Below are positions 50,185 to 63,547 of a stretch of 64,000 nt of DNA, in pieces (the stretch's first letter is position 1; each line of letters begins with the position of its first letter). The notes beneath the pieces are model-generated. The model had not been told where the DNA came from. It saw only the letters and a program-made list of their open reading frames with translations, and searched no databases. Source of the stretch: a virus. The stretch is taken from UHGV virus genome UHGV-1372970; one strand, given 5' to 3'. The position numbers and the translations under genes were made by a program.

Positions 50185-50207
50185 GCAGAAAACAAATTGT
50201 TTAAGGC
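50185..50207. promoter_or_regulatory. Early operator/promoter element GCAGAAAACAAATTGTTTAAGGC with -10 GATAAT about 11 nt downstream on the transcribed strand
   Basis: Identical 23-mer recurs at 52125-52147. Downstream (mRNA sense) ...CTGCC-N11-GCGATAAT... is the same in both copies. Confidence 0.55.
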
Positions 50208-50313
50208 CATTATAAAACAACAAAGGTGTTATGCGGCAGCCGAAGAATAGCCGGAGGGTGACTAAGTGGTGTTTATACCGTGCGGTAGCCGAAGGATGGT
50301 TGAAGGGTACCTG

Positions 50314-50544
50314 TTATCGCAATAGCCAGTTAAGGCGCTTATTGAACTCTAAAATTTGCCTGGTCGTTAACTTTTTGGCCAGCATCCATTCATCTATCTC
50401 TTTCTGAATGGCTCGCTGGGCGTCAATTCGCTCGTCACTGAGGGACGGAAAAGAGAAAACAGATAGTCTGAAGCGTCCGGCGATGTACTGACAAAATTCT
50501 TCTTGCTCAGGTCGTGCGATTGGAGATGCGTTGTGAAAAATCAT
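50314..50544 (-). CDS. Hypothetical small early protein, 76 aa
   Basis: ORF track. Confidence 0.4.
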   Translation of the reverse strand: MIFHNASPIARPEQEEFCQYIAGRFRLSVFSFPSLSDERIDAQRAIQKEIDEWMLAKKLTTRQILEFNKRLNWLLR

Positions 50545-50643
50545 CTTTGTTGCCGAAAATTAGTGATGAAGTCCGCAAATATTATAACTGTTTAAAAAAT
50601 GTAAAAGCCACCAATACTGGTGGCTCAATAAATAGCCTCTAGG

Positions 50644-51111
50644 TTAAGCGGCCGGCTCGGTGGCGGTTTCGGTGCCGTCGGCTTTCAGAACGTCTTCAGG
50701 TAACAGCTCGGTCAGCGCTTCGCCGGAATAAATCTTCATACCGTAGACACCCATCCAGGTGCTGCCGGCAGCAAGGTTCCCATCGATGAAGTCCAGGACC
50801 TCAGAAATCAGGCTTTCGGTCAGAGTAACGGTGTCTTTGCGGAAGAATGCTTCTGCGGCCACCAGCAGCGCGTCGCCGCCGTCGTTAATCATCTGCTGCC
50901 CTACGGTGTAGACTTTCTGCTTATTGGAACGCAGAACGGTACGAGACAGCTGGGTAGACAGTTGAGTCGCCCCGGATTCATCACGCAACTGAATAGTCAG
51001 CGTAGCGATGCGATCGGCAGTCATAGGGTCAGTGTTAGATGCATAGAACAGGTCGTATACCAGATCGGTACGTTTTAGGCTCATAATTACCTCCATGTAG
51101 TTGAGCGGCAC
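50644..51111 (-). CDS. Hypothetical early protein (true start probably at about 51084, MSLKRTDLVYDL..., preceded by GGAGGT)
   Basis: ORF track. Strong SD before the internal ATG. Late-type palindrome GTAAGTAAACACTTAC at about 51126-51142 upstream. Confidence 0.45.
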   Translation of the reverse strand: MPLNYMEVIMSLKRTDLVYDLFYASNTDPMTADRIATLTIQLRDESGATQLSTQLSRTVLRSNKQKVYTVGQQMINDGGDALLVAAEAFFRKDTVTLTESLISEVLDFIDGNLAAGSTWMGVYGMKIYSGEALTELLPEDVLKADGTETATEPAA

Positions 51112-51210
51112 TAATCATATACTGGTAAGTAAACACTTACAATACAGGCACAAAAAAGCCCCAAAAGGATGAAGGGGCTGTAGAAATTTTTGTGACTACT
51201 AAGCACATGA

Positions 51211-51630
51211 TTATGCGATAGCAGCAAGGGACTCTCTTGAAATCTCTTTCTGAGCCATTTTGTTTGCATACAAGATGGCTGTCTCAAGCTGCGAAATTGG
51301 AAAGATACGCTGCACCGCTGACCATCCAGACTTCAGACCACTGCGACGCACGCTAACGACTACGCGATGAGATGAACCACTATCAAAGCTGACCGAGCAC
51401 TCTTTAAATACGCGAATAGCAGTGCCATTTGCCAGGATGTCCAAAAGGGTCAAGCTCGACGTGTTTGTCTTGCGTGTTTCCTTGAACTCCGCGCGCTTGG
51501 CAATGTGATAAGCAGAGAATAAACGATCAGTGTTGTTCATGGCTTCAATCTCGTTCCGTGTTTCGTTGAGAAGAATATTAACAGTGCTGATGAGGGTGAA
51601 AACAACTTGTTTAAGGCGATAAGAAAACAA
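51211..51630 (-). CDS. Hypothetical early protein (true start probably at about 51540, MNNTDRLF...)
   Basis: The tracked N-terminal extension overlaps the conserved promoter/operator element (51596-51617). An internal Met is followed by in-frame protein. Confidence 0.4.
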   Translation of the reverse strand: MFSYRLKQVVFTLISTVNILLNETRNEIEAMNNTDRLFSAYHIAKRAEFKETRKTNTSSLTLLDILANGTAIRVFKECSVSFDSGSSHRVVVSVRRSGLKSGWSAVQRIFPISQLETAILYANKMAQKEISRESLAAIA

Positions 51631-51708
51631 TAAAGGCGACTGAGCGTAGTAATTCGCCGCAGGTCTGGTGGGCTGAAAAGATAACGGATTGCTCCGCTAT
51701 CTTTCTTA

Positions 51709-52071
51709 TTAGGCTGGGTCTAAATCCATGTAGAACGTCACGTCTTCCTCTTCGACCAGGCGAGCATCGTCTGGCAGTTTGTAAGCGAAATCACCAGATG
51801 CGCCATTGTCGTACTCTTCCGACATTCTCACGGCGTCCTTCGCTAGATAGTCAATGCTGGTGTCGAAGTCCACCAGGGCGAGCTTCTCTGTATTGAGTAC
51901 GTGGACAGTGCCAAAATCGCCAGCGCCATACGTGTTGACCATCGCCAGCACGTTGGAAAGATCTGGTGCCACGTAAAATTCGTTCTGCCCTTCTACTGGC
52001 TCAGCGATGATCGCAGTAAAAGAAGTTTTGGCAGCGTTGCGAGTGGTGAAGTAGTGAAATCGTGTTGTCAT
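51709..52071 (-). CDS. Hypothetical early protein, 120 aa (acidic)
   Basis: ORF track. Operator element at 52125-52147 upstream. Confidence 0.45.
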   Translation of the reverse strand: MTTRFHYFTTRNAAKTSFTAIIAEPVEGQNEFYVAPDLSNVLAMVNTYGAGDFGTVHVLNTEKLALVDFDTSIDYLAKDAVRMSEEYDNGASGDFAYKLPDDARLVEEEDVTFYMDLDPA

Positions 52072-52223
52072 TTTGTGTATTCCGTTGATTGTTCCGATGG
52101 ATGTATTATCGCATCGTGAATCAGGCAGAAAACAAATTGTTTAAGGCGTTAAGAAAACAAACAAGGCGAGAAAACTGCCGTAGGGAACTTTCACACAAAA
52201 GCCACCGTAGCTGGTGGCATGTC

Positions 52224-52592
52224 TTACCTGATAATCACAAAGTTGTGCCGGTGATTGCTTCCGCCGCAGTTGTCGCCGGTATAGCTCACCATCTCTTCGC
52301 CGGTCGTCATAATCATGATCTTCGCCTCAACAGATTTGTACCGGCCACAGAAGCGATCGAAGAAAGACAGGCTATTGGCCATATCAAGGCGAATGTCCGT
52401 TCGCAAGCGGCCGTTCTTTTTCAGCACTTCCCACCCAGCGTCACTATTCCACCAGCTACAGAGTTTACGGGCCATCTCCGTCTTCTTATCCGCCGTCAGA
52501 TTGCCGGTGTACGGAAACACGAACCGCAAATCGTTACAGGCGCCCATAACTGCCTTCGTTGGTTCCATAAGGGGCTTAATTTCCAGGCTCAT
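52224..52592 (-). CDS. Hypothetical early protein, 122 aa
   Basis: ORF track. Start overlaps the stop of 52592-52816 (ATGA coupling). Confidence 0.45.
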   Translation of the reverse strand: MSLEIKPLMEPTKAVMGACNDLRFVFPYTGNLTADKKTEMARKLCSWWNSDAGWEVLKKNGRLRTDIRLDMANSLSFFDRFCGRYKSVEAKIMIMTTGEEMVSYTGDNCGGSNHRHNFVIIR

Positions 52593-52816
52593 TAGTCCTC
52601 CGGGAACTCTTTCGCGATTGCGGCGGCAACTTTTATCTTCTCTTCGTCAGTAAACGTCTCCCAGGCTACTTTGGCCAGAGGCGCGTTTTCTCCATCAGTT
52701 TCCGGTGTGATGAATGACCACAATTTACGGTAAAGATCCTCACCCACGCCGTCGATGCACTCGGCGACCTCATCGACAGTCCAGTAATTCAATAAATCAG
52801 GCATTTGGACGCTCAT
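52592..52816 (-). CDS. Hypothetical small acidic protein, 74 aa
   Basis: ORF track. Confidence 0.4.
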   Translation of the reverse strand: MSVQMPDLLNYWTVDEVAECIDGVGEDLYRKLWSFITPETDGENAPLAKVAWETFTDEEKIKVAAAIAKEFPED

Positions 52817-52824
52817 ATCTCCCC

Positions 52825-53043
52825 CTATACAATCGACTCAGAAACAGAGCAGTTCCAGGCTAGTTCAAAACTCTCAGTCCCCACAGGCACCCCAAAGGCA
52901 CCGGAGCAGTGGCCTTTGGCCAACATATCTGACACCTTGGTAATAACTTCTGCCGAGCGAATCAAATTGCCTAGCGCCTCATCGTTGCGAAGGGTCATGC
53001 TATTGTCAGATAGCGTAATGCTGATATTTAAATGCTTGTACAT
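52825..53043 (-). CDS. Hypothetical small protein, 72 aa
   Basis: ORF track. Hairpin TGGTTATT-ATTGC-AATAACCA just upstream (about 53069-53089). Confidence 0.35.
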   Translation of the reverse strand: MYKHLNISITLSDNSMTLRNDEALGNLIRSAEVITKVSDMLAKGHCSGAFGVPVGTESFELAWNCSVSESIV

Positions 53044-53289
53044 GTGCTTTACTCAGTTGTTTTCTTATGTTGGTTATTATTGCAATAACCAGTAGGCGAA
53101 AAAGCACATTTAAAAGAGAAACGCGATAAAATGGCCGGACTTAACTCATTGACACCCGTCGTTTTCCTGACAGAATGAATATCGCTGGTGGTATGACCGT
53201 ATTTATACGAACCTATGCCTGGGTCGCCTCATGCCACCAGCCGCCCAACTCCCGCGACCGCTCGGTTGACCTTTCATCAAGCAGCCTCG

Positions 53290-53640
53290 TCTATACGGCA
53301 ACCTCCCCGTTTCCCGACCGCAGGCTGTATCTGGCCGTTCCCCGTTTTGCCGCGGCTAAAGGCGACCGACCCGTTTCCTGGCCGTAGGGAGTTTGTGCGG
53401 CGCCAACGTTTTTGTAGGGCTGGGAAATTACAGCTTGAATTTATGCGAAGACGGAAGCGCGACTTTTTTTCTGACCCTACTTACACAAACACCTAAACAC
53501 CCAAACCTCTTCCCTCTATAACGCCTTAATCCCAATACCCCAGAACTCTCTTAACGCTACCTTCCCAAAACGGTAAATGACCTTCCCAAACTGTCCCTTT
53601 CCTATTCCCAAACTGTTCTGGGTATCTTCCCAAATTTCTT
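53290..53640. repeat. Direct-repeat (iteron-like) region: three degenerate CCCGTTT(C/T)C... repeats, then four TTCCCAAA repeats phased at 20-22 bp
   Basis: TTCCCAAA at about 53563, 53583, 53605 and 53627. CCCCGTTTCCCGACCGCAGG, CCCCGTTTTGCCGCGG and CCCGTTTCCTGGCCGTAGGG at 53303-53390. Region is non-coding. Confidence 0.4.
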
Positions 53641-54543
53641 CTGACCTTCTCTATGGTGGATGTGTATCTGGGAGTGTTCTTCTCTACGGGATTTCCTTCT
53701 ATCGCTTCCTATGGTGTGGTTGTTCTTTCTTGGTGGTTTCCTCTGGGTTGTTCTCTTATCCGGGATTCGTTCTACCTTGTGTAATGGCATATAGGCGAAG
53801 AGATTGTTTCGTCGTTTTGTTCTGGGAGATGGCAGGTAACCGACTGCTTGTTTTCTTGTGCTCTTAAACAAGTTGTTATCTGGGTGAATGTGTCGTTAAG
53901 CCTTGTCCTGGCTGCTTTCCGCAATTCTGGGGATTTGAGGTTGCATTGCTATTGGGTGATGGCAGGTATGGGATTATCTCTTTATCGTTTCTCTCGTGTG
54001 CCTGGGGAACGCTGGATGTGTTTCCGTGACTGTTGGGGTTTGGCGGGTGCCCCAATGCCTGTGATAAGTCGAGTGGTGTTCTTGGGATTTTTGAGCCTCG
54101 CTTCCTTTGGTTGGTGGTATGCCGGTTCCGCTCTTTCAGTTATGATAGTGGGTTTTGCCTGAATGTATTGTTGGTGGTTCTTCCTCCCGATTTCGAGTTG
54201 ATTGGCTTATCCTCGTATACGCTCTGTAATGCTCTCTAAGCAAATCTGATTTGTGGTGATGTGTTGGTGTGGCGTTTCCTGTTTAATCGAAGCCTGGGCG
54301 TTCTGGTGTAGTGTCGAGCGGGTATAAGAGTGGTTATGCTCAAATGTCAAAAAATGAGGGTAAAAATGGGTTTTGGTTTGACGTTACGTTGATCTGCAAA
54401 CAAGTTGTTTTCTTATGGGTGTTATTGCTTTGTTTACAGCGGCGTTGCGGGTTGATGAGTGGTTGATTAGGTGGAAAAGTGATGATCAACCTCTCCTTAT
54501 AGAAACTGCGAGAGGTTGACTGGTTACGTCAGTGAAAGGTCAA

Positions 54544-54849
54544 TCACTCTTTTGTGTCTGGGTACAGCCTATTTAATTCCTCTCTGACGTTCCCGAAACA
54601 CTTCTGATCATTTGGTAGAGCTGCATCATCCACGTTAGGGTCAGGTTTGAATTTTTCCTTGTACGCTTTATAAGCCTCTTGAACTTTTTGAGAAACTACA
54701 GCACCAGGGGCATGGGCGCATACATTCGTTATCTGATCAGCGATTGAGCTTTCAGCCGCTGAAGCACTGAAGTTCGCCATAAATGCCAAAACAAGAATGC
54801 CTACTTTCTTCATTACTAACTCCATTAGTGTGATTCGAAGTGAGTGCAA
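54544..54849 (-). CDS. Small secreted protein (signal peptide; start probably MKKVGIL at about 54813)
   Basis: MKKVGILVLAFMANFSASAAES signal peptide, with GGAG SD before the internal ATG. Confidence 0.45.
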   Translation of the reverse strand: MHSLRITLMELVMKKVGILVLAFMANFSASAAESSIADQITNVCAHAPGAVVSQKVQEAYKAYKEKFKPDPNVDDAALPNDQKCFGNVREELNRLYPDTKE

Positions 54850-54864
54850 ATCGTCCCTTCAATG

Positions 54865-55332
54865 TTACTGCTTAACGATAGCAGAGGTGCAATCAAATAC
54901 TGAAACCTTGTTCTCTTTTATCATATGAACGAGGTACGTTTTAGAAAATTCACCTAATCCCTTGGAGAAAACCAGCCCACCTGAAGGCTCGCTAGTAATC
55001 ATCTTCTCACTGCGAAAAACAAGATCCCCACTGTAGAAATCTCCTGCGCTGCCTCGCACAATGAAACTACTTCCTTGGTCAACAATTGTGGCCTTATTTT
55101 GCATTACAGCACCATCGCCGAATTTAGCATTGCATCCAACATATGTAATGTGCTGGGTGTCTGACGGTCTTGTGCTACGACTTTCACTTGAACATCCCAT
55201 TACTGAAAAACAGCATATGGACAAAAACAAAAGCTTACTTCTCATCGCCAACCCCTTTGTTCTGCATTCACCAATCCCAAACTTGCAAGCCGTCAATCGT
55301 ATCTGCGTCGCAGTCGAAATGCACGACCTCAA
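54865..55332 (-). CDS. Lipoprotein (start probably MRSKLLF at about 55245)
   Basis: Lipobox ...CCFSVMGCSS. Roughly 126 aa mature-size protein. Confidence 0.45.
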   Translation of the reverse strand: MRSCISTATQIRLTACKFGIGECRTKGLAMRSKLLFLSICCFSVMGCSSESRSTRPSDTQHITYVGCNAKFGDGAVMQNKATIVDQGSSFIVRGSAGDFYSGDLVFRSEKMITSEPSGGLVFSKGLGEFSKTYLVHMIKENKVSVFDCTSAIVKQ

Positions 55333-55588
55333 AATCAGCGTTCAGGACTTTCTCGATGTTCTCGATCGCCGACCAGCTAATACCTTCCTCGCGCAAAGAC
55401 TCTTTCCATGCTTCAGCGTGAAGTCCGGCCCGGACAATCCAGCCATACTCTGTGCCGTGTACCCAATTCAGACCGCGATCTGTCAGTGGGTCAAAACTGA
55501 TTTGAGGCAGTATCTCGGAGTCCGCTTGAGTAACGTGGGCGGTGCTGATAACGGCGACTTTGTATGATTCAGTAATATTCAGGCTCAT
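55268..55588 (-). CDS. Hypothetical early protein, 106 aa (acidic, W-rich)
   Basis: ORF track. Confidence 0.4.
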   Translation of the reverse strand: MSLNITESYKVAVISTAHVTQADSEILPQISFDPLTDRGLNWVHGTEYGWIVRAGLHAEAWKESLREEGISWSAIENIEKVLNADFEVVHFDCDADTIDGLQVWDW

Positions 55589-55658
55589 GTGTTTTCTCTT
55601 TGTTGTTTTCTTAATGGTTTTATTATCTCAACTTGCTATAGGCAGAAAACAAGTTGTT

Positions 55659-55922
55659 TTAGGCTTTGTTAAACTCTTTCAACCACTCGGCGGCTGCTTC
55701 GTGAACCATGCGTCCTTTTGCGATGGTCAATTCTGCCTGGGCCACTGTGATGCCGTAATCCTCTGCGAACGCAGCGACGGAAAGGTAGTTGTTCATCCAG
55801 TCACGGTAAAGTTCAGCGAGGTTCTCTGAGGTTACTTTTTCTGGGTGGGTCAAGCTGACTGTCAGGTATGTGTTGGAAGGGGTCATGTTGGGTTCTCCTT
55901 TTCTGGTTGGCGTTATTATCAC
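55659..55922 (-). CDS. Hypothetical early protein, 87 aa
   Basis: ORF track. Operator elements on both sides (55642-55664 and 55935-55957). Confidence 0.4.
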   Translation of the reverse strand: MIITPTRKGEPNMTPSNTYLTVSLTHPEKVTSENLAELYRDWMNNYLSVAAFAEDYGITVAQAELTIAKGRMVHEAAAEWLKEFNKA

Positions 55923-55959
55923 AAACCAGAAAAGGTAGAAAACAAATTGTTTAAGGTGA

Positions 55960-56571
55960 TTACTTAATGCTGTCCTCGTAGTTTTTTGCGTCTCTGGTTA
56001 TTCCTGCCACTATCAACTTCTCAGGGCCGTTAGCGTAGATGCTCTTAGCCTTAACCAGCACATATACCTCATCTACATTGCCGTAAATTTCGTAATAGTC
56101 CATAGGGCAGTGGTTCTGTTCTAACCCTGCTTCTGGATTGTACGCTTTGCAGAAGCCTGGACTTGACTCGAAAGCGGCTTGATCTCTCACGCCAGCGCGA
56201 GTCGCCAGAGCTGGGCCATATTTACTTTTCAGCACATCCTGCACCTTCTTCATCTCATTCACACTCACATTGACGATGGAGTACGCAATTTTCCCGTCTA
56301 ATGTGCTAAAGATGACTAAATCTGCGTCTTTCTCTTCCTTGAGGACTTTGCCTACGTATTCTGATGGTGCGTATAGATACTGAGAAAAACGATCCTTGGC
56401 TTTGACTGGTTTGTCCGTTGCCTTCCCGTCCTGATCAACCATCGTATAACCTGCCATATCTACCTGAGATGGTGTTTTGTTGAGCACCATCTCATATGGT
56501 TTAACGGCAACATCATTACAACCTGAAGCCAGAAAAAGTATTGCAACGATGCCAATGTTTTTAATTTTCAT
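55960..56571 (-). CDS. Lipoprotein, 203 aa
   Basis: MKIKNIGIVAILFLASGCND signal peptide plus lipobox. Confidence 0.5.
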   Translation of the reverse strand: MKIKNIGIVAILFLASGCNDVAVKPYEMVLNKTPSQVDMAGYTMVDQDGKATDKPVKAKDRFSQYLYAPSEYVGKVLKEEKDADLVIFSTLDGKIAYSIVNVSVNEMKKVQDVLKSKYGPALATRAGVRDQAAFESSPGFCKAYNPEAGLEQNHCPMDYYEIYGNVDEVYVLVKAKSIYANGPEKLIVAGITRDAKNYEDSIK

Positions 56572-56612
56572 TTCAATCTCTGATTAGTGGATTTTTTACA
56601 AGCCGTTTCATT

Positions 56613-56792: not shown

Positions 56793-56800
56793 CTGCGCCT

Positions 56801-58486
56801 CTATGCTCTTTTGAAAACGAATACTGCGACTGTGATGCCGGTGTCCTCGAACTCACCTGAGAACTCTCGGCCTGATTTAGCGCAAACGAACTGATTACCT
56901 ATCCATTCTTCCGGCTTGTAACCGGCTGGCAGGACTGCGGCCATAATTCCTTTTTCGTTGAGATGGTTAAGCGCGGTTAGCGTGTGCTCTTTTGCTCGAC
57001 CTTCCGAATACGGTGGGTTGATGGCGATCTTGTCGTAGTCGTAAGGCAGCTGCTTTGACCAGTCGATAAAGTCTTTATTGTGAACGCTGTACCCTTTGGC
57101 CGAGAGGATGTCGCAGAACAATGGCGACACTTCTACGCAGGTCACATTCTCCGGTGTCGCGTTGAGAAATGTCAGCAAATCACCACGGCCGGCTGACGGC
57201 TCAAGTACGCGGTCAGTGGGTGTGCATTTCAGGATCTGCGCTACGTATTGAGCGATTGATTCCGGTGTCGGGTAGAACTGGTGTGACTTAACCTCTGGAA
57301 TGAGGCCCATTGACACGATACTGTCGAATGTCGCGGTTGGCTCATACGGGAACAACCAGCTGCCTCTCTCCTTCACACCACCGATAAATCTCAGAGTGCG
57401 TTCAAGGTCTTCTATTTGAGCCTTTTGCAGTGACGAATCGGAGAAGTACCACGTACCGTCTTTACTACTATGGCGACGATCACGAATGACGCCTCTGGTT
57501 CTTTCCGATACGGTCTTCTGGATGTAGCCGAACTCTTTTGGTGCCTTAGTTGTTGGCGCCTTGCGACATGGTGCCGGTATTGCTGCAGGCATACTATGGG
57601 CCAGCACCTCATTCAGCTTCCAGGCGACGTCCGGGTGGATCTCAAAGTGTGCGTTTCCGTTTTTGAAGATTTTGACGCGCATTAAATTGCCATCGACATT
57701 CATCCATTTCCCGGTTTCGCAACCATGCGCTCTGTAAGCCGCTGAGAGCATCTCAGAGCAACGATTAAGGGTAATGAACTCCTTGTGGGCAAAAAAGTGC
57801 AGCATGACGCGCAGGTCGTCAATGACGTCCGATTTGTGGTAATTCAGGGAAACACTTTCGTTCCAAAAGTCAGTGACACAGTAAGAGATGATCAGCTTCT
57901 CGCTAAAGCCGTATGTTTTATTGGTCTTGTGGGTCGGGCTTAATGCCTTAAACAGACCATAGACACGCTCTGCCAGATATTTATGGCGGTCATTGAGTAA
58001 CGTCGTCATCGTTGGGATAACAGTGTCCGCGGTGAACTCGGGAACGCCAACGAACTCCTCAACTCTACGCTCAAAGCCGCCGCGGTCTTTTTTTACCGTC
58101 TTTTGCACGCCTAACGTGAACTGACTGCGCCACTGATCTCGGCGCTCAGCTGGCATGATTAACAGTGCGCCTGTCATATCCGTCACCTTATGCCAGTATT
58201 CCGCCCAAATGTTCTGCTTCACGAAATCAAGGTTAACGGCGTTCAGCTGAGAGACGTTACGGAAGTTTTCATCATTCGGGCGGCGGCTCAGTACCTGCAG
58301 ACGATTAATCATCGAGACACGGTCGCTAGAGTAAACAAAATCATGCACCTGGTTCATCAGGGATATTTCGTTTTCACACTCAGCGACAATATCGTGAATG
58401 ACATTCATTTCCTTACGGAAGTCGACAGCGCCGGTTGTGCTACTGATGGTTGCTACGGCAGTTGACATGGTCATTTCCTTAAACAA
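56801..58486 (-). CDS. Two-domain protein: large N-terminal domain of unknown function plus C-terminal N6-adenine DNA methyltransferase (probable start MSTAVAT at about 58465)
   Basis: C-terminus has SAM motif I VLEPSAGRGDLL, ...QFYPTPESIA... and catalytic motif IV NPPY (INPPYSEG). The N-terminal roughly 370 aa has no catalytic motif I can name. Confidence 0.6.
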   Translation of the reverse strand: MFKEMTMSTAVATISSTTGAVDFRKEMNVIHDIVAECENEISLMNQVHDFVYSSDRVSMINRLQVLSRRPNDENFRNVSQLNAVNLDFVKQNIWAEYWHKVTDMTGALLIMPAERRDQWRSQFTLGVQKTVKKDRGGFERRVEEFVGVPEFTADTVIPTMTTLLNDRHKYLAERVYGLFKALSPTHKTNKTYGFSEKLIISYCVTDFWNESVSLNYHKSDVIDDLRVMLHFFAHKEFITLNRCSEMLSAAYRAHGCETGKWMNVDGNLMRVKIFKNGNAHFEIHPDVAWKLNEVLAHSMPAAIPAPCRKAPTTKAPKEFGYIQKTVSERTRGVIRDRRHSSKDGTWYFSDSSLQKAQIEDLERTLRFIGGVKERGSWLFPYEPTATFDSIVSMGLIPEVKSHQFYPTPESIAQYVAQILKCTPTDRVLEPSAGRGDLLTFLNATPENVTCVEVSPLFCDILSAKGYSVHNKDFIDWSKQLPYDYDKIAINPPYSEGRAKEHTLTALNHLNEKGIMAAVLPAGYKPEEWIGNQFVCAKSGREFSGEFEDTGITVAVFVFKRA

Positions 58487-58499
58487 TTTGTTTTCTTAT
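58476..58499. promoter_or_regulatory. Early operator element (reverse orientation) CCTTAAACAATTTGTTTTCTTATG in the MTase 5' leader. A second copy lies at 58526-58548.
   Basis: Family element located between the SD/start codon of the MTase gene and the upstream promoter. Confidence 0.5.
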
Positions 58500-58571
58500 G
58501 CTAGTTATTATCTCAAACAATAAAAGGCGATAAACAAATTATTTAAGGCAATGAAAAGACCGCCTAGGCGG

Positions 58572-59222
58572 TCATGGGATAGATTGTTTATTGAGGCTAT
58601 TCCACTTATTCATCAACTCGGCATTGCGCTGATCTGACTTGCTAAAGAGCTTTTCTGGCAGTTGGGAAAGGCTGGTTGCTATCGTTTTCTCGGCTTCAAT
58701 CAGAAGAGGGTGATCTCCGCTTCTGTTTTCGATCTCTTCGACTGATGCACCTATGTCCTTGCCGACGAACAGCACTCTCAATATAAATGCCTTTTCAGCC
58801 AGATATTGCGCCGCAAATTTTTGGTCATGCTTAACAATTGACCGAGTATTGTGGACAATATCTGCCAGCTTAATAACTCGACTTTGCATGTCCAGGCGCT
58901 CCTGCAGAGCGGTGACGTTGATGAAGAATCTCGCCTCACGATTACCGTCTTCTGACTTTGCCTTGTTGCTTAGTGCATCTATCATCTCAGCAACGCGCTC
59001 CCCGAACAGCTCGAAAAGGTGGCCGAATGTTACGTCCGTGTCTTCGATAGTGTCATGTAGTAGCGCTGCGGCGATCATTTCCTCCGTGCCGCCGTGGTTG
59101 CGAACAATCTCTGCTACAGCCGCTGGGTGCGAGATATAGTCCTCTCCGGTGTATTTGCGCTTTTGGCCTACCCCTGCATGAGCGCCGGCCGCAAACATAT
59201 AGGCTTTATCGACAATGTTCAT
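58572..59222 (-). CDS. HD-domain hydrolase of the RelA/SpoT (p)ppGpp-hydrolase type (small alarmone hydrolase-like)
   Basis: ...YISHPAAVAEIV...EMIAAALLHDTIEDTDVT... matches the His-Asp / HDxxED motifs of Rel/SpoT/Mesh1 hydrolase domains. 216 aa with no synthetase domain. Confidence 0.55.
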   Translation of the reverse strand: MNIVDKAYMFAAGAHAGVGQKRKYTGEDYISHPAAVAEIVRNHGGTEEMIAAALLHDTIEDTDVTFGHLFELFGERVAEMIDALSNKAKSEDGNREARFFINVTALQERLDMQSRVIKLADIVHNTRSIVKHDQKFAAQYLAEKAFILRVLFVGKDIGASVEEIENRSGDHPLLIEAEKTIATSLSQLPEKLFSKSDQRNAELMNKWNSLNKQSIP

Positions 59223-59479
59223 ACCAGCTTCTCTCTGATGGCGGCTTTAATCTGGTCGCCGCTCAAAATATTCAGTTTTTGGTCATAGAAAACAGCCTCG
59301 CCAGTTTTGGACTCATGCTGTGAAATAACACCGTAACCATACTTTTCTAACGAGTCCAGTCCGCTCTGGGCTATACGGTAGGAGTAATCGCGCCCCCATG
59401 TTGCATCATTACGTCCTTCAAACCGGGCGTGCTTGTAGTGTTCACGGATGAACAGATAGTGTTTCTGTCTGAATATCAT
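59219..59479 (-). CDS. Hypothetical small early protein, 86 aa
   Basis: ORF track. Start overlaps the HD hydrolase stop. Confidence 0.4.
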   Translation of the reverse strand: MIFRQKHYLFIREHYKHARFEGRNDATWGRDYSYRIAQSGLDSLEKYGYGVISQHESKTGEAVFYDQKLNILSGDQIKAAIREKLV

Positions 59480-59596
59480 GCGTATTGTTCCATTGTTTTC
59501 TTATGCTTATTATTTTCACACACAAGAAAAGGCAGTAAACAAGTTGTTTGGTTATTTTATTAGGCTGTAAAATGCTTTAGGACTGAAACCGGGCGA

Positions 59597-59914
59597 TTGC
59601 AAAGGGATTATGCAATGGGATTCGGTCTCCAATGCTGGGACGAAAACGGCAATCTTGTCGTGGATACCAGCGATTACAACTGCCGGTACATCGGCACGTA
59701 CAGTGTGAAAATGAATGGGAGCGATAGCTCTGTTACCCAAGGGGTCTCTGGCATTAGCTCAGGAAACTCCTTTGCTGTTGTTGTTGCAGGCTCGTGGGGT
59801 TCCGGGTTTAACGAGGTTTACTGCGTCACCAGCGACAATGCCTTTACGCTCTTCTCGGCCTCCGGCAATCACACTGAACAGACGTTCACGGTAGAAGTTT
59901 ATCGATATGCTTAG
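59597..59914 (+). CDS. Hypothetical beta-rich small protein, plus strand. Paralogous N-terminus to the next gene.
   Basis: MGFGLQCWDENGNLVVDTSDY... versus YGFEVYNDAGALQLDSENKT... in the downstream ORF. Opposite strand to all neighbouring genes. Confidence 0.4.
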   Translation: MQRDYAMGFGLQCWDENGNLVVDTSDYNCRYIGTYSVKMNGSDSSVTQGVSGISSGNSFAVVVAGSWGSGFNEVYCVTSDNAFTLFSASGNHTEQTFTVEVYRYA

Positions 59915-59923
59915 GGATAATGC

Positions 59924-60574
59924 ATGACATACGGATTTGAAGTTTACAACGATGCGGGGGCGCTGCAACTCGACTCCGAAAACAAGACGACGCTCTTCTC
60001 TGACATCAGAGACATCTCTGGCCTGACGGATATCGGCTATTACGCGATAGATAACCCTTTTGGGGGGAAATACCCGTTTGGTTTTTTGAAGCCGGCAGAC
60101 ATGCCGACATCCGGCTACCTGCATTGGTTTAGATTAAATGCCGGCGCCTTCGCTATGCCTGGGGCCTGGAGCTTTCAAAACAACAGCGGTCAGATAATCA
60201 GAACAACGCGCAACCTCAGTGTTGAAAGCGGATATCTCGACGTGAGGAACGGTAATGGGGATCTCATCTGGAGTGCCAAAAGCGCCAACCGTGTGCCAAG
60301 AATAAGAGGGTTCATAGACCTTCCGGCAAACTCGCCCGTTGATAGCCAGGTCATATCTTTCACGCCGGGCTTCAATCCGTGGATCCTGTTAAATGCGACA
60401 CCGGGCAACATATCTGACGACGGAGAGACCGTCGGCTATTCCGGTCTACTCATTCGATGGACAGGTTCACAAATACAGGTGAAGTATGCCCGCCAGAGAC
60501 AAAAGAGCTTCTCAGAGTCATTTGGTGGTAGGGGAGGGCTGCGTATCCCTTATGCTCTCTTTCCGGGATACTAA
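59924..60574 (+). CDS. Hypothetical beta-rich protein, 216 aa, plus strand
   Basis: ORF track. Followed by the terminator hairpin at 60576-60604. Confidence 0.45.
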   Translation: MTYGFEVYNDAGALQLDSENKTTLFSDIRDISGLTDIGYYAIDNPFGGKYPFGFLKPADMPTSGYLHWFRLNAGAFAMPGAWSFQNNSGQIIRTTRNLSVESGYLDVRNGNGDLIWSAKSANRVPRIRGFIDLPANSPVDSQVISFTPGFNPWILLNATPGNISDDGETVGYSGLLIRWTGSQIQVKYARQRQKSFSESFGGRGGLRIPYALFPGY

Positions 60575-60575
60575 T

Positions 60576-60604
60576 GAAAAGGGGCATCAGCCCCTTTTCA
60601 TTTC
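60576..60604. terminator. Bidirectional terminator hairpin GAAAAGGGGC-ATCA-GCCCCTTTTC
   Basis: Perfect 10-bp GC-rich stem flanked by A-run and T-run. Lies between convergent plus-strand and minus-strand genes. Confidence 0.6.
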
Positions 60605-60798
60605 TTCGAGTGATCTGGTTCGACATAGCGAGAAAGCACGTAACTTAGTGACTCACGCATGGACCCGGCGCCACAGTGCTTCTTTGCCACATCAGCAAGC
60701 TCAGAAACCAGTTCGCGATAGACGTGGGGCGGTAACTTCACCATAGGCTCTTTCATCAACTCAATTTTCCCGCATAGTAATATGGGACGATAACCCAC
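60598..60798 (-). CDS. Hypothetical small protein, 66 aa
   Basis: ORF track. Confidence 0.35.
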   Translation of the reverse strand: MGYRPILLCGKIELMKEPMVKLPPHVYRELVSELADVAKKHCGAGSMRESLSYVLSRYVEPDHSKK

Positions 60799-61049
60799 TC
60801 CGCATTCCAGTCGTTCACAACCTGCTGCGCTTCAGAAAGTGTTTTACGGTCTGCGGTAACTTCACCAGCTTTGTTCATGATGTGATAGCCGGCCGGGTTT
60901 GCCGAGGATGTGCTGAGTGACTCTTCCCGTAAACAGACTTCTCGAACGGGTATGCCGTTCTCTTTGGCCCGGTTGAAGGCTTCCAATGAGCAGTCTATCC
61001 AGGTATTTCCGCCATCATTTGCTTGACGAATTACTTTATTTTTAACCAT
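60756..61049 (-). CDS. Hypothetical small protein, 97 aa
   Basis: ORF track. Confidence 0.4.
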   Translation of the reverse strand: MVKNKVIRQANDGGNTWIDCSLEAFNRAKENGIPVREVCLREESLSTSSANPAGYHIMNKAGEVTADRKTLSEAQQVVNDWNAEWVIVPYYYAGKLS

Positions 61050-61201
61050 TTTCAGATCTCCACCACCAATAAATATTCAGATGCCACAGACAGAACGAGT
61101 AAAACGGCCCATCGTTCCAGAATCGGCCAAACCCCCATCGCGCCACGCGGCGTGGAATCCAGCTAATAGCAAGCCACCAGCCACCATGACGACCGGGGAG
61201 T

Positions 61202-61591
61202 TTAATTTTCAAGGAAATCTCCCTCATCTCGATCATGACGACGCTCGAAAGCGATAGTAAGACGCTCGCCTTTCTTCGGCTTCCCCGCATCAAGTCGCCA
61301 ATGCTTCATGTCACTGACGATTTGCTTTGTGAAATAGCCGTCTTTGTCGTCCTCTACAACAACATTCTCGACGCGACCGACTCGATTAACATCGTATTTC
61401 ACATGAACAGTACCGTACACACCGTGCTGATATGCGCGAACAGGGAATTTAACGGTGTTATCTGGTTTTATGCTGCATCCTGTCAGGGCGATCGCCAACA
61501 GGAGGTATGAAAACTTCATGAGGTCCTCCGTGACAAGAAGCGCAACCTTATCGCTGCGCCAATTGTTTATTTGTTTATTTGTTAAGGCCAA
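61202..61591 (-). CDS. Lipoprotein with TonB-C-like beta-rich domain (start probably MKFSYLL at about 61519, preceded by GGAGG)
   Basis: Lipobox LTGCS. ...GTVHVKYDVNRVGRVENVVVE... resembles the TonB C-terminal / energy-transducer fold pattern. Confidence 0.45.
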   Translation of the reverse strand: MALTNKQINNWRSDKVALLVTEDLMKFSYLLLAIALTGCSIKPDNTVKFPVRAYQHGVYGTVHVKYDVNRVGRVENVVVEDDKDGYFTKQIVSDMKHWRLDAGKPKKGERLTIAFERRHDRDEGDFLEN

Positions 61592-62075
61592 AGCGATTCT
61601 TCAGCTCGCGGATCTGAGCATTCGCGCCGGCCATTGCTCGCGTCTGGGCCAACTCAAAGGTATTCACGATGGTTTCGACGATGCGAAGAGCCTCTTCATG
61701 AGACATTTTATTAGCGTCTGCCTCGGGGGCTTTTTCTTTAACAGGCATCCAGCTCAGTGTCTCGTGCAGACGCTTGTTGTCTGCTTCAAGCTCTTTATTC
61801 TGGCTGGCGAAGTGAGCGATCAGAAGAAGCATGTTCGCGGGGTCAAGCAGACCAGCCTCGCCATAATGATCCAGTTGCAGCTTTAGCTTCAGTGCATCAG
61901 TTACAGAGTCAATTTCACCGGTTGCTAGAATCGCCAGCTCAGCAATTTCGTTTGCGTGAGACAGGGTTTGTTGGCGTTGAGCTTTAATTCGTTCACAGTT
62001 CTGGCACATGTATTTTCCTTTTTTTGTTTTGATAACAATTTGTTTTCTGATGTGGTTAATTATGGGCTGACCCAA
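61575..62075 (-). CDS. Hypothetical coiled-coil protein (start probably MCQNCERIK at about 62010)
   Basis: ORF track. Conserved leader catgtattttcc at about 62008. Confidence 0.4.
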   Translation of the reverse strand: MGQPIINHIRKQIVIKTKKGKYMCQNCERIKAQRQQTLSHANEIAELAILATGEIDSVTDALKLKLQLDHYGEAGLLDPANMLLLIAHFASQNKELEADNKRLHETLSWMPVKEKAPEADANKMSHEEALRIVETIVNTFELAQTRAMAGANAQIRELKNRFGLNK

Positions 62076-62096
62076 AAGGGGTCAGCCCATGTTTAA

Positions 62097-62876
62097 TCAG
62101 GCGATAGCTTTCTCTGCGGTCATCTCTTTTACGCTATCTCGACAGACGTCATGAGAGATTGAATCGACACGGATAATCCCGCGCTTGATAAGGAGTAGGG
62201 CGATAAAGCACAGACCTTTAAACGTAAATTTGGCCTGAGTATGGCCACCGACAACACTGGTTACGTTACGGCCCAGGCCGCGGTCAATGAACGTCTTCAA
62301 CAGCTGGCGTGGGGTCGTGGTGTATTTGCGCTTAACGAACACACCTCCTGCCATTTCCATGCACGATGCCATTACTGCGCCAGAAGTACCTAGGATGCGG
62401 CCAGGTTCATTAACGCCGTACAGCTGATCTGCAGTGCCGGCCAGTCGGTCCATAAGAACAGCCTTCGGACTCGCTACGCTGAGTGCCTCACCCAAAGCGA
62501 CATTCTCATCAGTCAGCCGCTCATTTTCTTCAACCTGAGCAACAAGGTGGATCAGCGCCTCTTTATAGGTACGTGGCAGAGCCGGTTCTTTTACAGCCTT
62601 CTCAAGCTCAAGCCAGCGGTCTACCAGACGCGCCGTGAACTCTGGACTTAGCTGGGCTACAACGATAATGCTGTCTCGCTTCCCCATCTCCCCGGAGAAC
62701 ACGAAAAACGTCGCGGAGCGGCCTGCCGTGGGCTTTTCCCCCATTGGGGGAGAAGTTATAACGCCGCGTTTTACAAGTCTTTCGATGGACTGCTTGACCT
62801 TGTCATGGCGATTTCCGATCAGCTCGGCAATATCCATGCTGGTCATCGTTGCTGTGGTGATGCTTAATTCTTTCAT
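62097..62876 (-). CDS. Rha-family phage regulatory protein (N-terminal Rha/Bro-like DNA-binding domain plus C-terminal KilA-C/ORF6C-like domain)
   Basis: ...TSMDIAELIGNRHDKVKQSIERLVKRGV... matches the Phage_pRha N-terminal motif. Confidence 0.55.
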   Translation of the reverse strand: MKELSITTATMTSMDIAELIGNRHDKVKQSIERLVKRGVITSPPMGEKPTAGRSATFFVFSGEMGKRDSIIVVAQLSPEFTARLVDRWLELEKAVKEPALPRTYKEALIHLVAQVEENERLTDENVALGEALSVASPKAVLMDRLAGTADQLYGVNEPGRILGTSGAVMASCMEMAGGVFVKRKYTTTPRQLLKTFIDRGLGRNVTSVVGGHTQAKFTFKGLCFIALLLIKRGIIRVDSISHDVCRDSVKEMTAEKAIA

Positions 62877-63064
62877 TCGTTCTCTTCAACAAAAAGGAGC
62901 CGAAGCTCCTTATATTGTTTTGGCGCCTTTAATCAGCAAAGGCAGTAATAAAGTGATGCCAGTAATAACCAGCACCCCATCCGCAGCCACTGATAAAATC
63001 CGGCTGGTGAAGTCCACCAGCACAGACAGAACCAGCAGCGCCAGCGCGACGCTGACGCGGACCA

Positions 63065-63490
63065 TCACAGGTACTGATCCAGAGACAGTTGCAGTGCCTG
63101 GGCAATTTTCTTCAGCATCAGTTCTTCTTTCTCATCGATGCCGTCGTTATCAGCGATGTCCAGGCACAGGCACAGAACATCGACCGCATCAGTGGTTCCA
63201 GCTACATCGGCCAGCTGACGCATAGCTTCAGCGTTAGCGGAGCGCGGGGAAGCTTCGTAGCGTGAACGAATATTTGAACTCATTTGGGCGATTTCGCCGG
63301 CAAACGGAGAGAAAGAGGGCAGTGCGGAGATGGTCTTCTCCAGAACGCTAATTTCTTTAGCATCGCAGGTGCCGTCGGCATATGCGATCGCATAGGCGCC
63401 CCACACGGTGGCTTCTACTGCATCGCGGTTTTCCATCTTTTTGACTTCAACAGCGGCTTTACGAACTTTCTTTTTAAAAATACCGAACAT
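63065..63490 (-). CDS. TerB-like (tellurite-resistance TerB domain) protein
   Basis: ...AYAIAYADGTCDAKEISVLEKTI...LCLCLDIADNDGIDEKEELMLKKIAQALQLS fits the TerB helical-bundle pattern (paired acidic metal-binding motifs). Confidence 0.5.
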   Translation of the reverse strand: MFGIFKKKVRKAAVEVKKMENRDAVEATVWGAYAIAYADGTCDAKEISVLEKTISALPSFSPFAGEIAQMSSNIRSRYEASPRSANAEAMRQLADVAGTTDAVDVLCLCLDIADNDGIDEKEELMLKKIAQALQLSLDQYL

Positions 63491-63547
63491 GTGATTTCCT
63501 TTGTTTTCTTATTTTAGAAAATAATTTGTTTTCTACTTCAGGCTGTG

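What the first reader, a model, noticed from the sequence alone, without database searches (positions are those of the whole stretch)
50185..63520. Dispersed 23-bp early operator/promoter element GCAGAAAACAAATTGTTTAAGGC (at least 14 copies, both orientations) coupled to GATAAT promoters
Core palindrome is AAACAA-n-TTGTTT with asymmetric flanks. Forward copies at about 50185, 51596, 52125, 55642, 55935, 58526 and 59525. Reverse copies at about 4583, 41281, 53866, 54395, 58476, 62025 and 63510. Close variants lie at 3116 and 6747. In two copies the downstream sequence is identical: CTGCC-N11-GCGATAAT. This places the dyad centre near -38 relative to a sigma70-like -10. In other cases (helicase, MTase, parA) the element sits in the 5' leader just before the SD. 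The whole early/replication regulon, and also terS, thus shares one site. That is a hallmark of a single master repressor or activator with dispersed operators, as in P1 C1, or of a phage-specific early promoter class. Leaders also share ...CATAAGAAAACAATG.
Basis: seen in the sequence. Interest (0 to 1): 0.7.

Follow-up and report, generated by a model that had tools for sequence, protein, structure and literature searches.

The report
Shared operator-promoter module of SSU5-like phage-plasmids
A 13-base palindrome (AAACAAnTTGTTT) sits at fixed positions around about a dozen near-identical promoters of a Klebsiella SSU5-like phage-plasmid and is most likely the binding site of an unidentified element-encoded repressor that keeps accessory and early genes off while the element lives as a plasmid.

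Summary
AAACAAnTTGTTT occurs 15 times in the window with at most 1 mismatch (0.29 expected), and every copy is intergenic.

The window is about 97% identical to K. oxytoca pCAV1335-118, an SSU5/pHCM2/pMT1-type phage-plasmid. The palindrome is equally enriched in SSU5, Cyrano and pMT1.

It belongs to a conserved ~85-bp module. A palindrome centred near -38 lies exactly 26 nt upstream of an extended -10 (TGnGATAAT, no -35). A second full or half copy, AGAAAACAA(nTTGTTT), is centred near +13, 51 bp from the first.

Of 51 unique modules across the family, 50 keep at least one palindrome. None of 93 departures from consensus is compensated, so the sequence is conserved, not a hairpin.

In published RNA-seq of the Cyrano lysogen, genes behind these promoters sit at background.

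Best reading: a dispersed repressor operator. The binding protein is unknown.
- Rha is excluded because Cyrano lacks it.
- The CI-like immunity region lacks the site.
- Candidates are an 88-aa winged-helix protein, a small protein expressed in the lysogen, and, at RNA level, an FljA-family protein.

This is a new member of a known kind and moderately interesting.

The parts
58469..58553 (-). Complete promoter module of the DUF4942 methyltransferase gene (56801-58468). It has an upstream palindrome at 58532-58544, an extended -10 TGAGATAAT at 58507-58515, and a downstream palindrome at 58481-58493 followed directly by the SD AAGGA and the ATG. The two centres are 51 bp apart. A terminator-like hairpin lies just upstream at 58558-58573.
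   Evidence: (nhmmer E 2.4e-17)
50130..50210 (-). Promoter module of gene 49644-50132. Upstream palindrome at 50190-50202, extended -10 TGCGATAAT at 50165-50173; the downstream copy is degenerate.
51575..51620 (-). Partial module of gene 51211-51540. Upstream palindrome at 51600-51612, with TGTTAATAT at 51575-51583 at the same 26-nt spacing.
52070..52151 (-). Promoter module of gene 51709-52071. Upstream palindrome at 52130-52142, extended -10 TGCGATAAT at 52105-52113. An extra AGAAAACAA half-site lies at 52152-52160 on the + strand.
53040..53118 (-). Promoter module of gene 52825-53043. The upstream palindrome is degenerate, the extended -10 is TGCAATAAT at 53076-53084, and a downstream half-site AGAAAACAA lies at 53057-53065.
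   Evidence: (E 2.5e-13)
55599..55666 (-). Promoter module of the DUF5983 gene 55268-55588. Upstream palindrome at 55647-55659, extended -10 TGAGATAAT at 55622-55630, downstream half-site at 55603-55611.
55888..55960 (-). Promoter module of gene 55659-55886. Upstream palindrome at 55940-55952, extended -10 TGTGATAAT at 55915-55923.
   Evidence: (E 1.9e-17)
59477..59549 (-). Promoter module of the operon 59219-59479 plus the HD-domain gene 58572-59222. Upstream palindrome at 59537-59549, extended -10 TGTGAAAAT at 59512-59520, downstream half-site at 59493-59501.
4582..4594 (-). Leader-type copy, 26 nt before the ATG of the DnaB-like helicase gene (3201-4562). A possible TTGAGC-N16-CATAAT promoter lies just upstream, which would put the site at about +6.
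   Evidence: the promoter is my reading of the sequence
6751..6763 (-). Leader-type copy with 1 mismatch, upstream of parA (6055-6720).
41286..41298 (-). Leader-type copy between the 88-aa winged-helix gene and terS (40655-41245), 47 nt before the ATG. It is conserved at terS in pCAV1335-118 and is present as two copies in pMT1.
53866..53878 (-). Leader-oriented copy with 1 mismatch, inside the conserved ORF-free 1.4-kb stretch.
54395..54426 (-). Partial module (downstream half) with palindrome at 54398-54410, at the start of the ORF-free stretch.
62033..62045 (-). Leader-type copy with 1 mismatch before gene 61575-62009. It is preceded by a hairpin I read as a terminator and by CATAAT.
   Evidence: (hairpin and CATAAT are my reading of the context)
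63519..63531 (-). Leader-type copy with 1 mismatch before the TerB-DUF3927-Rha operon. Here the element is a 19-bp palindrome, AGAAAACAAATTATTTTCT.
41415..41681 (-). Candidate binding protein (inferred only): an 88-aa winged-helix protein with a weak LexA_DNA_bind match. It is the most conserved candidate, 75-81% identical across SSU5-like groups.
46819..47172 (+). Candidate binding protein (inferred only): a 117-aa protein whose sequence pattern I read as ribbon-helix-helix-like. The Cyrano counterpart, CYRAN_117, is about 11 times background in the lysogen.
   Evidence: not confirmed
47237..47770 (+). Candidate RNA-level partner (inferred only): an FljA-family protein (PF03614). The predicted fold is two tandem Sm/Hfq-like barrels.

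Best explanation
The palindrome is the operator of a sequence-specific, probably dimeric, DNA-binding repressor encoded by the phage-plasmid.

It is built into a family-specific sigma-70 promoter that has a strong extended -10 (TGnGATAAT) and no -35. One copy is centred near -38. A second full or half copy is centred near +13. The better-conserved 9-mer (TTGTTTTCT upstream, AGAAAACAA downstream) faces the core promoter from both sides.

Occupancy of either copy would block RNA polymerase binding or promoter escape. Single copies in the leaders of the helicase, parA and terS genes would act as promoter-proximal blocks or roadblocks. Together the sites would hold an array of separately transcribed accessory/early genes, plus some replication, partition and packaging genes, silent in the plasmid-prophage state.

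Shown: the sites, their fixed geometry, their conservation across the family, and that the sequence rather than base pairing is conserved.

Inferred: the transcription start points, protein binding, the direction of control, and the identity of the protein.
For: Enrichment in the window and in relatives:
- Window: 15 against 0.29 expected.
- SSU5: 13 against 0.17.
- pCAV1335-118: 20 sites, 12 of them in the 13 kb that matches window 50-64 kb.
- pMT1: 4 against 0.12.
- All 15 window sites are intergenic.

Fixed geometry:
- The palindrome centre is 26 nt from the -10 in 30 of 35 unique upstream copies, although the last ~10 nt of the spacer vary in sequence.
- The downstream copy is 25 nt from the -10, and the 51-bp pair recurs in 11 loci.

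Use of the two positions:
- 50 of 51 unique modules keep at least one palindrome. Upstream-only, downstream-only and both all occur.
- Orthologous promoters swap which copy is kept.
- A site downstream of the start point is typical of repressors, not activators (established knowledge).

Sequence, not structure, is conserved:
- 0 of 93 departures from consensus are compensated.
- Leader RNA folds are mostly no better than shuffles, with z from -0.5 to +0.6; the terS leader reaches -2.0.
- There are no Rfam matches.

Promoter strength and expression:
- The extended -10 is good and the standard -35/-10 scan does not list these promoters. Promoters of this type are normally active on their own (established knowledge).
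- Yet in the Cyrano lysogen the genes behind such modules (CYRAN_85, 87, 93, 101, 105, 106, 108, 110) read 5-13 against a median of 9.8 (PMC9928086 S1 Table).

Not a host regulon signature: the whole module hits 263 places in 244 complete E. coli genomes, all on plasmids and none on a chromosome.
Against: - No start site, binding or reporter data exist for this element. The -38/+13 numbering assumes a start 7 nt after the -10.
- The expression evidence comes from a relative whose proteins are only about 63% identical, from one study, and silence could equally mean a missing activator.
- An extended -10 promoter without a -35 and with a dimer site near -40 is also the classic layout of activator-dependent (class II) promoters. 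A protein at -38 need not exclude polymerase there.
- The fixed spacing is more than simple steric repression requires.
- No repressor is identified. The most conserved DNA-binding candidate (the 88-aa winged-helix protein) is at background in the Cyrano lysogen. The CI-like repressor region lacks the site.
- Leader copies lie 19-47 nt from start codons, which also fits an RNA-level role.
Confidence: 0.55

Rival explanations
1. Activator site or timing-class promoter. The upstream palindrome near -38 to -40 is bound by an element-encoded activator that recruits RNA polymerase to promoters lacking a -35, as CRP does at galP1 or MotA at T4 middle promoters. The genes are silent in the lysogen because the activator is made only after induction.
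For: There is no -35 but an extended -10, and the site has a rigid 26-nt spacing. The genes are silent in the Cyrano lysogen. The conserved winged-helix gene 41415-41681 lies in a lytic-side operon and is at background in the lysogen.
Against: 20 of 51 modules have no usable upstream palindrome but keep the downstream one. Stand-alone copies sit in leaders right before start codons, where an activator cannot work. TGnGATAAT should not need an activator (established knowledge).
Confidence: 0.15
2. RNA-level leader element. The copies transcribed into 5' leaders (AGAAAACAAnUUGUUU followed by AAGGA) are bound on the mRNA by a translational repressor. The conserved FljA-family protein or host Hfq are the candidates. 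Alternatively the A-rich tract acts as a translational enhancer. On this view the upstream DNA copies are by-products of module duplication.
For: Leader copies lie 19-47 nt before start codons and all 8 in the window have the same orientation relative to transcription. An FljA-family gene (PF03614, E 5.7e-29) is a core gene of every SSU5-like element searched: 13 phage records and 821 plasmids, including Klebsiella and Y. pestis plasmids. Those hosts make no flagellin (my knowledge), so FljA there needs another target. Its model is two Sm/Hfq-like barrels with no helix-turn-helix that I can see. From memory, Salmonella FljA binds the fliC mRNA leader (Yamamoto and Kutsukake 2006; I could not read the paper here).
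Against: Upstream copies sit at an exact distance from the -10. The one at 58538 lies beyond a terminator-like hairpin, so it is probably not transcribed. The fliC leader does not match the site matrix (core best score -0.2 against a median of 22.7 for real sites; 1946 of 20000 shuffles do as well). A two-fold symmetric sequence with a free central base is what dimers on duplex DNA recognise. FljA-like proteins are only 36-39% identical across groups while the site is invariant.
Confidence: 0.15
3. Mobile promoter cassette without a dedicated regulator. The ~85-bp module is a strong constitutive promoter unit copied between gene cassettes by recombination, like the promoter-early stem-loop cassettes of T4-type phages. 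On this view its internal palindromes are structural features (an A-tract UP-like element, an A-rich leader) and not a protein site.
For: The same module stands before non-homologous genes: the methyltransferase here, a DUF1380 gene in SSU5 and E. coli plasmids. Gene order differs between relatives and gene cassettes differ between close relatives. Some modules follow terminator-like hairpins.
Against: The palindrome also occurs alone, without the module, at the helicase, parA and terS genes and elsewhere. The palindrome stays conserved while the surrounding spacer varies. The genes behind the modules are silent in a lysogen. Homology breakpoints between close relatives do not fall on the modules.
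Confidence: 0.08

Closest known systems
Phage-plasmid P1: C1 repressor with many dispersed operators
   Same: A plasmid prophage in which one short site recurs at many separate promoters and operons around the genome, sometimes as two sites at one promoter, and keeps lytic and accessory functions off (my knowledge of P1).
   Different: P1 operators are asymmetric 17-mers (ATTGCTCTAATAAATTT type, from memory). Here the site is a 13-bp palindrome at two fixed positions around one stereotyped extended -10 promoter. No C1 homologue was looked for. The CI-like immunity region of this family lacks the site.
IncP-1 (RK2/RP4) global repressors KorA and KorB
   Same: Short palindromic operators (12-13 bp) dispersed over a plasmid backbone. 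Some lie near -39/-40 or over the -10 of many promoters, coordinating replication, partition and transfer genes (my knowledge; KorA structure paper PMC2665229 was listed).
   Different: The sequences are different and unrelated, and no KorA or KorB homologue has been tied to the site. The window's two ParB-family genes (43759-45130) are untested. The downstream +13 copy and the leader copies have no Kor counterpart.
Mycobacteriophage L5 gp71 'stoperators'
   Same: Dozens of 13-bp sites in short intergenic gaps, in one orientation relative to transcription, downstream of promoters (my knowledge). Here all 8 leader copies share one orientation.
   Different: L5 sites are asymmetric. Here the core is symmetric and orientation is carried only by the flanks (AGA on the upstream side).
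T4-type phage PeSL (promoter-early stem-loop) regulatory cassettes
   Same: A stereotyped short regulatory cassette repeated between small genes of unknown function in a plastic genome region, and found before non-homologous genes.
   Different: PeSLs are not known to carry a flanking pair of palindromic operators (my knowledge). Recombination at the modules was not supported by the one breakpoint comparison made.
Salmonella FljA acting on the fliC mRNA leader
   Same: The element encodes a full-length FljA-family protein. The leader copies lie just 5' of a Shine-Dalgarno AAGGA, as the CAAGTTGT...AAGGA stretch does in the fliC leader.
   Different: The fliC leader is not a significant match to the site. 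The upstream copies are not in the mRNA.

Membership tests
Extended -10 sigma-70 promoter | TG dinucleotide one base upstream of a -10 hexamer that has A at position 2 and T at position 6 | tested here: met
   TGnGATAAT, TGnGAAAAT, TGnAATAAT or TGnTAATAT at 8 places in the window, and in 51 unique modules across the family
Extended -10 sigma-70 promoter | Works without a recognisable -35 hexamer | tested here: met
   The standard -35/-10 scan lists none of these promoters. At 17-bp spacing the hexamer is GTTTTC (my reading).
Extended -10 sigma-70 promoter | Mapped transcription start 6-8 nt downstream of the hexamer | not testable with these tools
   No 5'-end data could be found.
Dispersed repressor operator (P1 C1-like regulon) | Many copies of one site that overlap or flank promoters of separate operons | tested here: met
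   15 intergenic copies in the window, 20 on the whole related plasmid, at fixed positions around the -10
Dispersed repressor operator (P1 C1-like regulon) | Target genes silent in the lysogen and derepressed on induction | tested here: inconclusive
   Genes behind the modules are at background in the Cyrano lysogen. No induction data exist, and the data come from a relative only.
Dispersed repressor operator (P1 C1-like regulon) | P1-type asymmetric 17-bp operator and a C1-family repressor | tested here: not met
   The site is a 13-bp palindrome. A C1 homologue was not searched for. It therefore works like P1 but is not a member of that family.
Dispersed repressor operator (P1 C1-like regulon) | An identified cognate DNA-binding protein | not testable with these tools
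   There are candidates only. Rha is excluded by its absence from Cyrano.
Structured RNA, hairpin or intrinsic terminator | Base pairing kept through compensatory changes | tested here: not met
   0 of 93 departures from consensus are compensated in 152 unique sites.
Structured RNA, hairpin or intrinsic terminator | Fold more stable than shuffled sequence, or membership of a curated RNA family | tested here: not met
   z-scores are -0.5 to +0.6 for four leaders and -2.0 for terS, where the predicted pairing pairs only the palindrome's 3' half with downstream sequence. There are no Rfam matches in the window.
Class II activator-dependent promoter | Every promoter carries the activator site near -41.5 | tested here: not met
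   20 of 51 modules lack a usable upstream palindrome. The centre is near -38 to -40, depending on the true start.
FljA / fliC-leader translational operator | An FljA-family protein is encoded | tested here: met
   PF03614 with E 5.7e-29 over the full length. It aligns end to end with the FljA of a hin-flagellin-fljA operon.
FljA / fliC-leader translational operator | The target resembles the fliC mRNA leader | tested here: not met
   The site matrix scored on the 62-nt fliC leader is not significant: 1946 of 20000 shuffles do as well.
T4-type PeSL mobile regulatory cassette | The same cassette stands before non-homologous small genes | tested here: met
   The module precedes the methyltransferase gene here and a DUF1380 gene in SSU5 and in 244 E. 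coli plasmid-bearing genomes.
T4-type PeSL mobile regulatory cassette | Homology breakpoints fall on the cassette | tested here: inconclusive
   In one comparison with a K. pneumoniae relative the breakpoints lie near but not on the modules.

The most novel reading that the evidence does not exclude
The palindrome is a dual-level operator. As DNA it brackets the core promoter for a dimeric repressor. As RNA, in the first ~20 nt of the same transcripts, it is the target of the conserved FljA-family protein, predicted here to be a tandem Sm/Hfq-like RNA binder. On this reading the FljA family is not primarily a flagellin regulator. It would be a global post-transcriptional silencer of phage-plasmid early genes, later borrowed by Salmonella for flagellar phase variation.
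Probability: 0.1. Interest if true: 0.8.

Novelty: new member of a known kind. Interest (0 to 1): 0.5.

Why it matters
SSU5-like phage-plasmids are common in clinical enterobacteria. The FljA-like core gene alone marks 821 PLSDB plasmids, including Y. pestis pMT1, and the promoter module occurs in 244 of 5,426 complete E. coli genomes. Some of these elements carry resistance genes (PMC9600943).

A 2024 review of phage-plasmids names no regulator for this group (PMC11652158).

A single, easily recognised operator-promoter module gives three things:
- a map of one regulon;
- an immediate handle for pull-downs, reporter fusions and induction studies;
- a well-defined repressible promoter part.

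It also shows that these elements use at least two separate families of dispersed sites.

Tried and rejected
1. Hairpin or structured RNA: rejected. There are no compensatory changes, the folds are mostly no better than shuffles, and Rfam gives nothing.

2. Operator of the CI-like repressor next to the integrase: unlikely. Its own control region on pCAV1335-118 has no copy and carries other repeats (TATTTACAT and GTAAGTA-type).

3. Rha/ANT protein as the binder: rejected as the general binder. It has no hit in the ~93 kb of Cyrano that I searched; the missing 15 kb is the structural-gene end.

4. SSU5_116 'repressor-like' protein: it has no homologue in the window.

5. Ribbon-helix-helix assignment of 46819-47172: this rests only on my reading of the sequence pattern. 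It has no support from Pfam, PDB sequence searches, a profile comparison with CopG (probability 5.5%) or a low-confidence AlphaFold monomer (pLDDT 55).

6. fliC leader as a homologous FljA target: the shared CAAGTTGT is not significant.

7. Host transcription-factor site: KdgR-type and IHF consensus sequences, recalled from memory, differ in spacing or sequence. The module never occurs on E. coli chromosomes. The bare 13-mer could not be scanned against host chromosomes.

8. Co-occurrence as a way to pick the binder: it is uninformative. The winged-helix, FljA-like, 117-aa and 214-aa proteins are all confined to, and present in, every SSU5-like element examined.

9. Literature: no paper held in the library describes the motif. 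The FljA papers, Gilcrease and Casjens 2018, and a 2026 preprint on an SSU5-like element could not be read, so prior description cannot be excluded.

Full report
**What the window is**

Window 50000-64000 is 96.9% identical to K. oxytoca plasmid pCAV1335-118 (117.6 kb, non-mobilizable). Its annotation shows a plasmid prophage. It carries terminase, portal, capsid and tail genes together with RepB, ParA, DnaB, primase, ligase, NrdAB and thymidylate synthase genes.

The DUF4942 methyltransferase is 64% identical to SSU5_095 of Salmonella phage SSU5. A 2024 review lists 'pCAV' as one group of the SSU5-related phage-plasmids (PMC11652158).

Nearly all genes in 49.6-64 kb lie on the minus strand. 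Of 20 proteins from that stretch scanned against Pfam, 18 have no match.

- AAACAAnTTGTTT has 15 matches with at most 1 mismatch, against 0.29 expected.
- The full 23-mer has only 6 matches within 3 mismatches.
- The extended half-site AGAAAACAA occurs 17 times against 0.94 expected.
- All 15 palindromes are intergenic, although about 88% of the window is coding.
- The 'variant' at 3116 is a different inverted repeat.

**Anatomy**

I read the sites in the direction of the genes and anchored them on the -10. They fall into one conserved module of about 85 bp:

gCCTT-AAACAAnTTGTTT-TCTrCCTTTTcTtnTT-TGnGATAAT-AAC-nCCAayAAGA-AAACAA[nTTGTTT]-AAGGAg-N5-8-ATG

- The upstream palindrome is centred 26 nt before the first base of the -10 hexamer. 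That is about -38 if transcription starts 7 nt after the hexamer.
- The downstream copy is centred 25 nt after the same base, at about +13.
- The two centres are therefore 51 bp apart.

A profile built from 12 modules finds seven full modules in the window (E from 2e-17 to 2.5e-13), all on the minus strand between 50130 and 59549. It also finds partial ones at 51620, 54426, 41314 and 62077.

The standard -35/-10 scan does not pick up these promoters. They rely on the TG extension.

In both, the better-conserved 9-mer faces the core promoter: TTGTTTTCT upstream and AGAAAACAA downstream.

**The same module across the family**

I compared SSU5 (L005), Cyrano (L006, L027), pMT1 (L040), a K. pneumoniae relative (L039) and 16 IMG/VR loci found with the leader pattern.

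- The 26-nt spacing holds in 30 of 35 unique upstream copies, even though the 3' part of the spacer differs in sequence. The distance itself is therefore under selection.
- The 51-bp pair recurs in 11 loci.
- Of 51 unique TGn-anchored modules, 50 keep at least one palindrome with at most 3 mismatches. Counting copies with at most 1 mismatch, 25 modules have a good upstream copy and 33 a good downstream copy.
- Orthologous promoters differ in which copy they keep. The methyltransferase promoter has both copies here and in K. pneumoniae, only the downstream one in SSU5, and neither intact in Cyrano. The promoter of gene 49644-50132 has the upstream copy here, while its SSU5 orthologue has the downstream one.

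**Sequence, not structure, is conserved**

- In 152 unique sites, 93 half-site positions depart from consensus and none is compensated on the other arm.
- The central base is free.
- Leader RNAs do not fold better than shuffles, except weakly at terS, where the predicted pairing pairs only the palindrome's 3' half with downstream sequence.
- Rfam finds nothing in the window.

This pattern fits a protein that reads the bases of a two-fold symmetric duplex.

**Direction of control**

A site at +13, and single sites a few nucleotides from predicted starts or inside leaders (helicase, parA, terS and others), are positions from which repressors act. Twenty of 51 promoters have only that copy.

TGnGATAAT should be active unaided (established knowledge). 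Yet the genes behind these modules are silent in the published RNA-seq table for the E. coli LF82 lysogen of Cyrano. CYRAN_85, 87, 93, 101, 105, 106, 108 and 110 give 5-13 normalised counts against a prophage median of 9.8. Genes expressed in the lysogen reach 46-148 (PMC9928086, S1 Table).

I therefore favour a repressor operator, at 0.55.

The main caveat is that an extended -10, no -35 and a dimer site near -40 is also the layout of activator-dependent promoters. In addition, the expression data come from a relative.

**Who binds**

This is unresolved.

- The CI-like helix-turn-helix gene next to the integrase lies outside the window. On pCAV1335-118 its control region has no copy of the palindrome and carries other repeats.
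- Rha/ANT (62097-62876) has no hit in the ~93 kb of Cyrano that I searched, although Cyrano has the sites.
- SSU5_116 has no homologue in the window.

Four proteins are present in the window, SSU5, Cyrano and pMT1:

| Protein | Coordinates | Identity across groups | Notes |
|---|---|---|---|
| 88-aa winged-helix protein | 41415-41681 | 75-81% | Weak LexA_DNA_bind match. Sits directly before the terS site. At background in the Cyrano lysogen. |
| 214-aa protein | 48402-49046 | ~50% | No family or structure match. |
| FljA-family protein | 47237-47770 | 36-39% | See below. |
| 117-aa protein | 46819-47172 | 36% | Cyrano counterpart CYRAN_117 is ~11 times background in the lysogen. |

I read the 117-aa protein as ribbon-helix-helix-like, but no tool supports that reading.

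By conservation, the winged-helix protein is the best DNA-level candidate. By expression in the lysogen, the 117-aa protein is.

**The FljA-family protein**

It matches PF03614 over its full length. It aligns end to end with the FljA of a hin-flagellin-fljA operon on a Citrobacter plasmid.

It is a core gene of every SSU5-like element searched: 13 phage records and 821 plasmids, including Klebsiella and Y. pestis plasmids. Those hosts make no flagellin (my knowledge), so the protein must have another target there.

Salmonella FljA represses fliC by binding its mRNA leader (from memory; the papers are not held). The leader copies of the palindrome are therefore an obvious candidate target.

The fliC leader, read from Salmonella and Citrobacter genomes, shares CAAGTTGT and AAGGA with them. 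That similarity is not significant against the site matrix.

An RNA-only role also cannot explain the upstream copies, which sit at a fixed distance from the -10, one of them beyond a terminator-like hairpin. I keep the RNA-level reading as a rival at 0.15 and as part of the most novel reading.

**Comparison with known systems**

The element works like several known systems:
- the dispersed operators of P1 C1;
- the KorA/KorB operators of IncP-1 plasmids;
- L5 stoperators, in the leader copies that share one orientation.

The repeated cassette before unrelated small genes recalls the T4-type PeSL cassettes.

It is a member of none of these families. The sequence differs, the core is symmetric, no family-defining protein is tied to it, and no Rfam or other curated family matches.

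I found no description of the motif in the papers I could search or read.

**Verdict**

This is a real, strongly non-random, family-wide operator-promoter module. It is most likely a repressor operator, and its binding protein is not yet known. It is a new member of a known kind. Interest is moderate (0.5). It is not conceptually surprising, but it makes the regulation of a widespread and clinically relevant group of phage-plasmids directly testable.

Noticed in passing
window 9715-9730, 25889-25904, 32329-32344, 35982-35997, 39383-39398, 45134-45149, 51125-51140; weaker copies at 903-918, 1923-1938, 5354-5369: A second dispersed palindrome, GTAAGTAnnTACTTAC. The 12-nt pattern GTAAGTANTTAC gives 15 matches against 0.52 expected. 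It lies in intergenic gaps before structural and other genes. In two cases it lies over the -35/spacer of a sigma-70-like promoter: in the spacer of TTGATA-N17-TAATAT at 25889, and overlapping the TTGTAA -35 and spacer of TTGTAA-N17-TATGAT at 51125. It also occurs in the divergent helicase/ParB control region, near the CI-like repressor gene of pCAV1335-118, and in SSU5, Cyrano and pMT1. It may be the CI-like repressor's operator or a late-promoter element.
   Followed up: partly
window 53100-54540: A ~1.4-kb stretch with no convincing ORF. It is unannotated in two related plasmids, yet 88.8% conserved with K. pneumoniae NZ_CP101792.1. On the minus strand it is A/C-rich. It begins with a partial promoter module and ends with four direct repeats TTTGGGAAG/T, at 53626-53634, 53604-53612, 53582-53590 and 53561-53569, spaced 22, 22 and 21 bp. 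It may be an iteron-type origin or a non-coding RNA locus.
   Followed up: partly
window 47237-47770 (+): A full-length FljA-family ('repressor of phase-1 flagellin') gene in an element of Klebsiella, a host that has no flagellin (my knowledge). The predicted fold is two tandem Sm/Hfq-like barrels, which suggests that the FljA family as a whole binds RNA through an Hfq-like fold.
   Followed up: partly
window 45196-49296 (+ strand block): A conserved operon on the opposite strand: a UvsW-like helicase, a 117-aa protein, the FljA-like protein and a 214-aa protein. It has the same order in SSU5, Cyrano and pMT1. In the Cyrano lysogen the helicase and the small protein are expressed at 46 and 114 against a median of 9.8.
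   Followed up: partly
window 49600-64000 and L005, L027, L039: Gene order and content between the promoter modules differ among relatives. The HD-domain and methyltransferase genes are in the opposite order in SSU5. Gene 50314-50544 and genes 54544-55245 are replaced or absent in a K. pneumoniae relative. In E. coli plasmids the best match to the methyltransferase promoter stands before a DUF1380 gene.
   Followed up: partly
window 11326-23760 (-): A single 4144-aa ORF, annotated as a phage tail protein in the relative. In pCAV1335-118 the corresponding gene is followed by a Tn3-family transposon insertion that appears to be absent from the window.
   Followed up: no
window, start codons of many minus-strand genes (e.g. 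4562, 50132, 53043, 55588, 62009, 63490): The translation start regions are stereotyped: an A-rich, GGA-containing tract followed by (C)ACATG (e.g. AAGGAAAGCACATG at 4562, GGAAATCACATG at 63490). This is seen throughout the element and its relatives.
   Followed up: no
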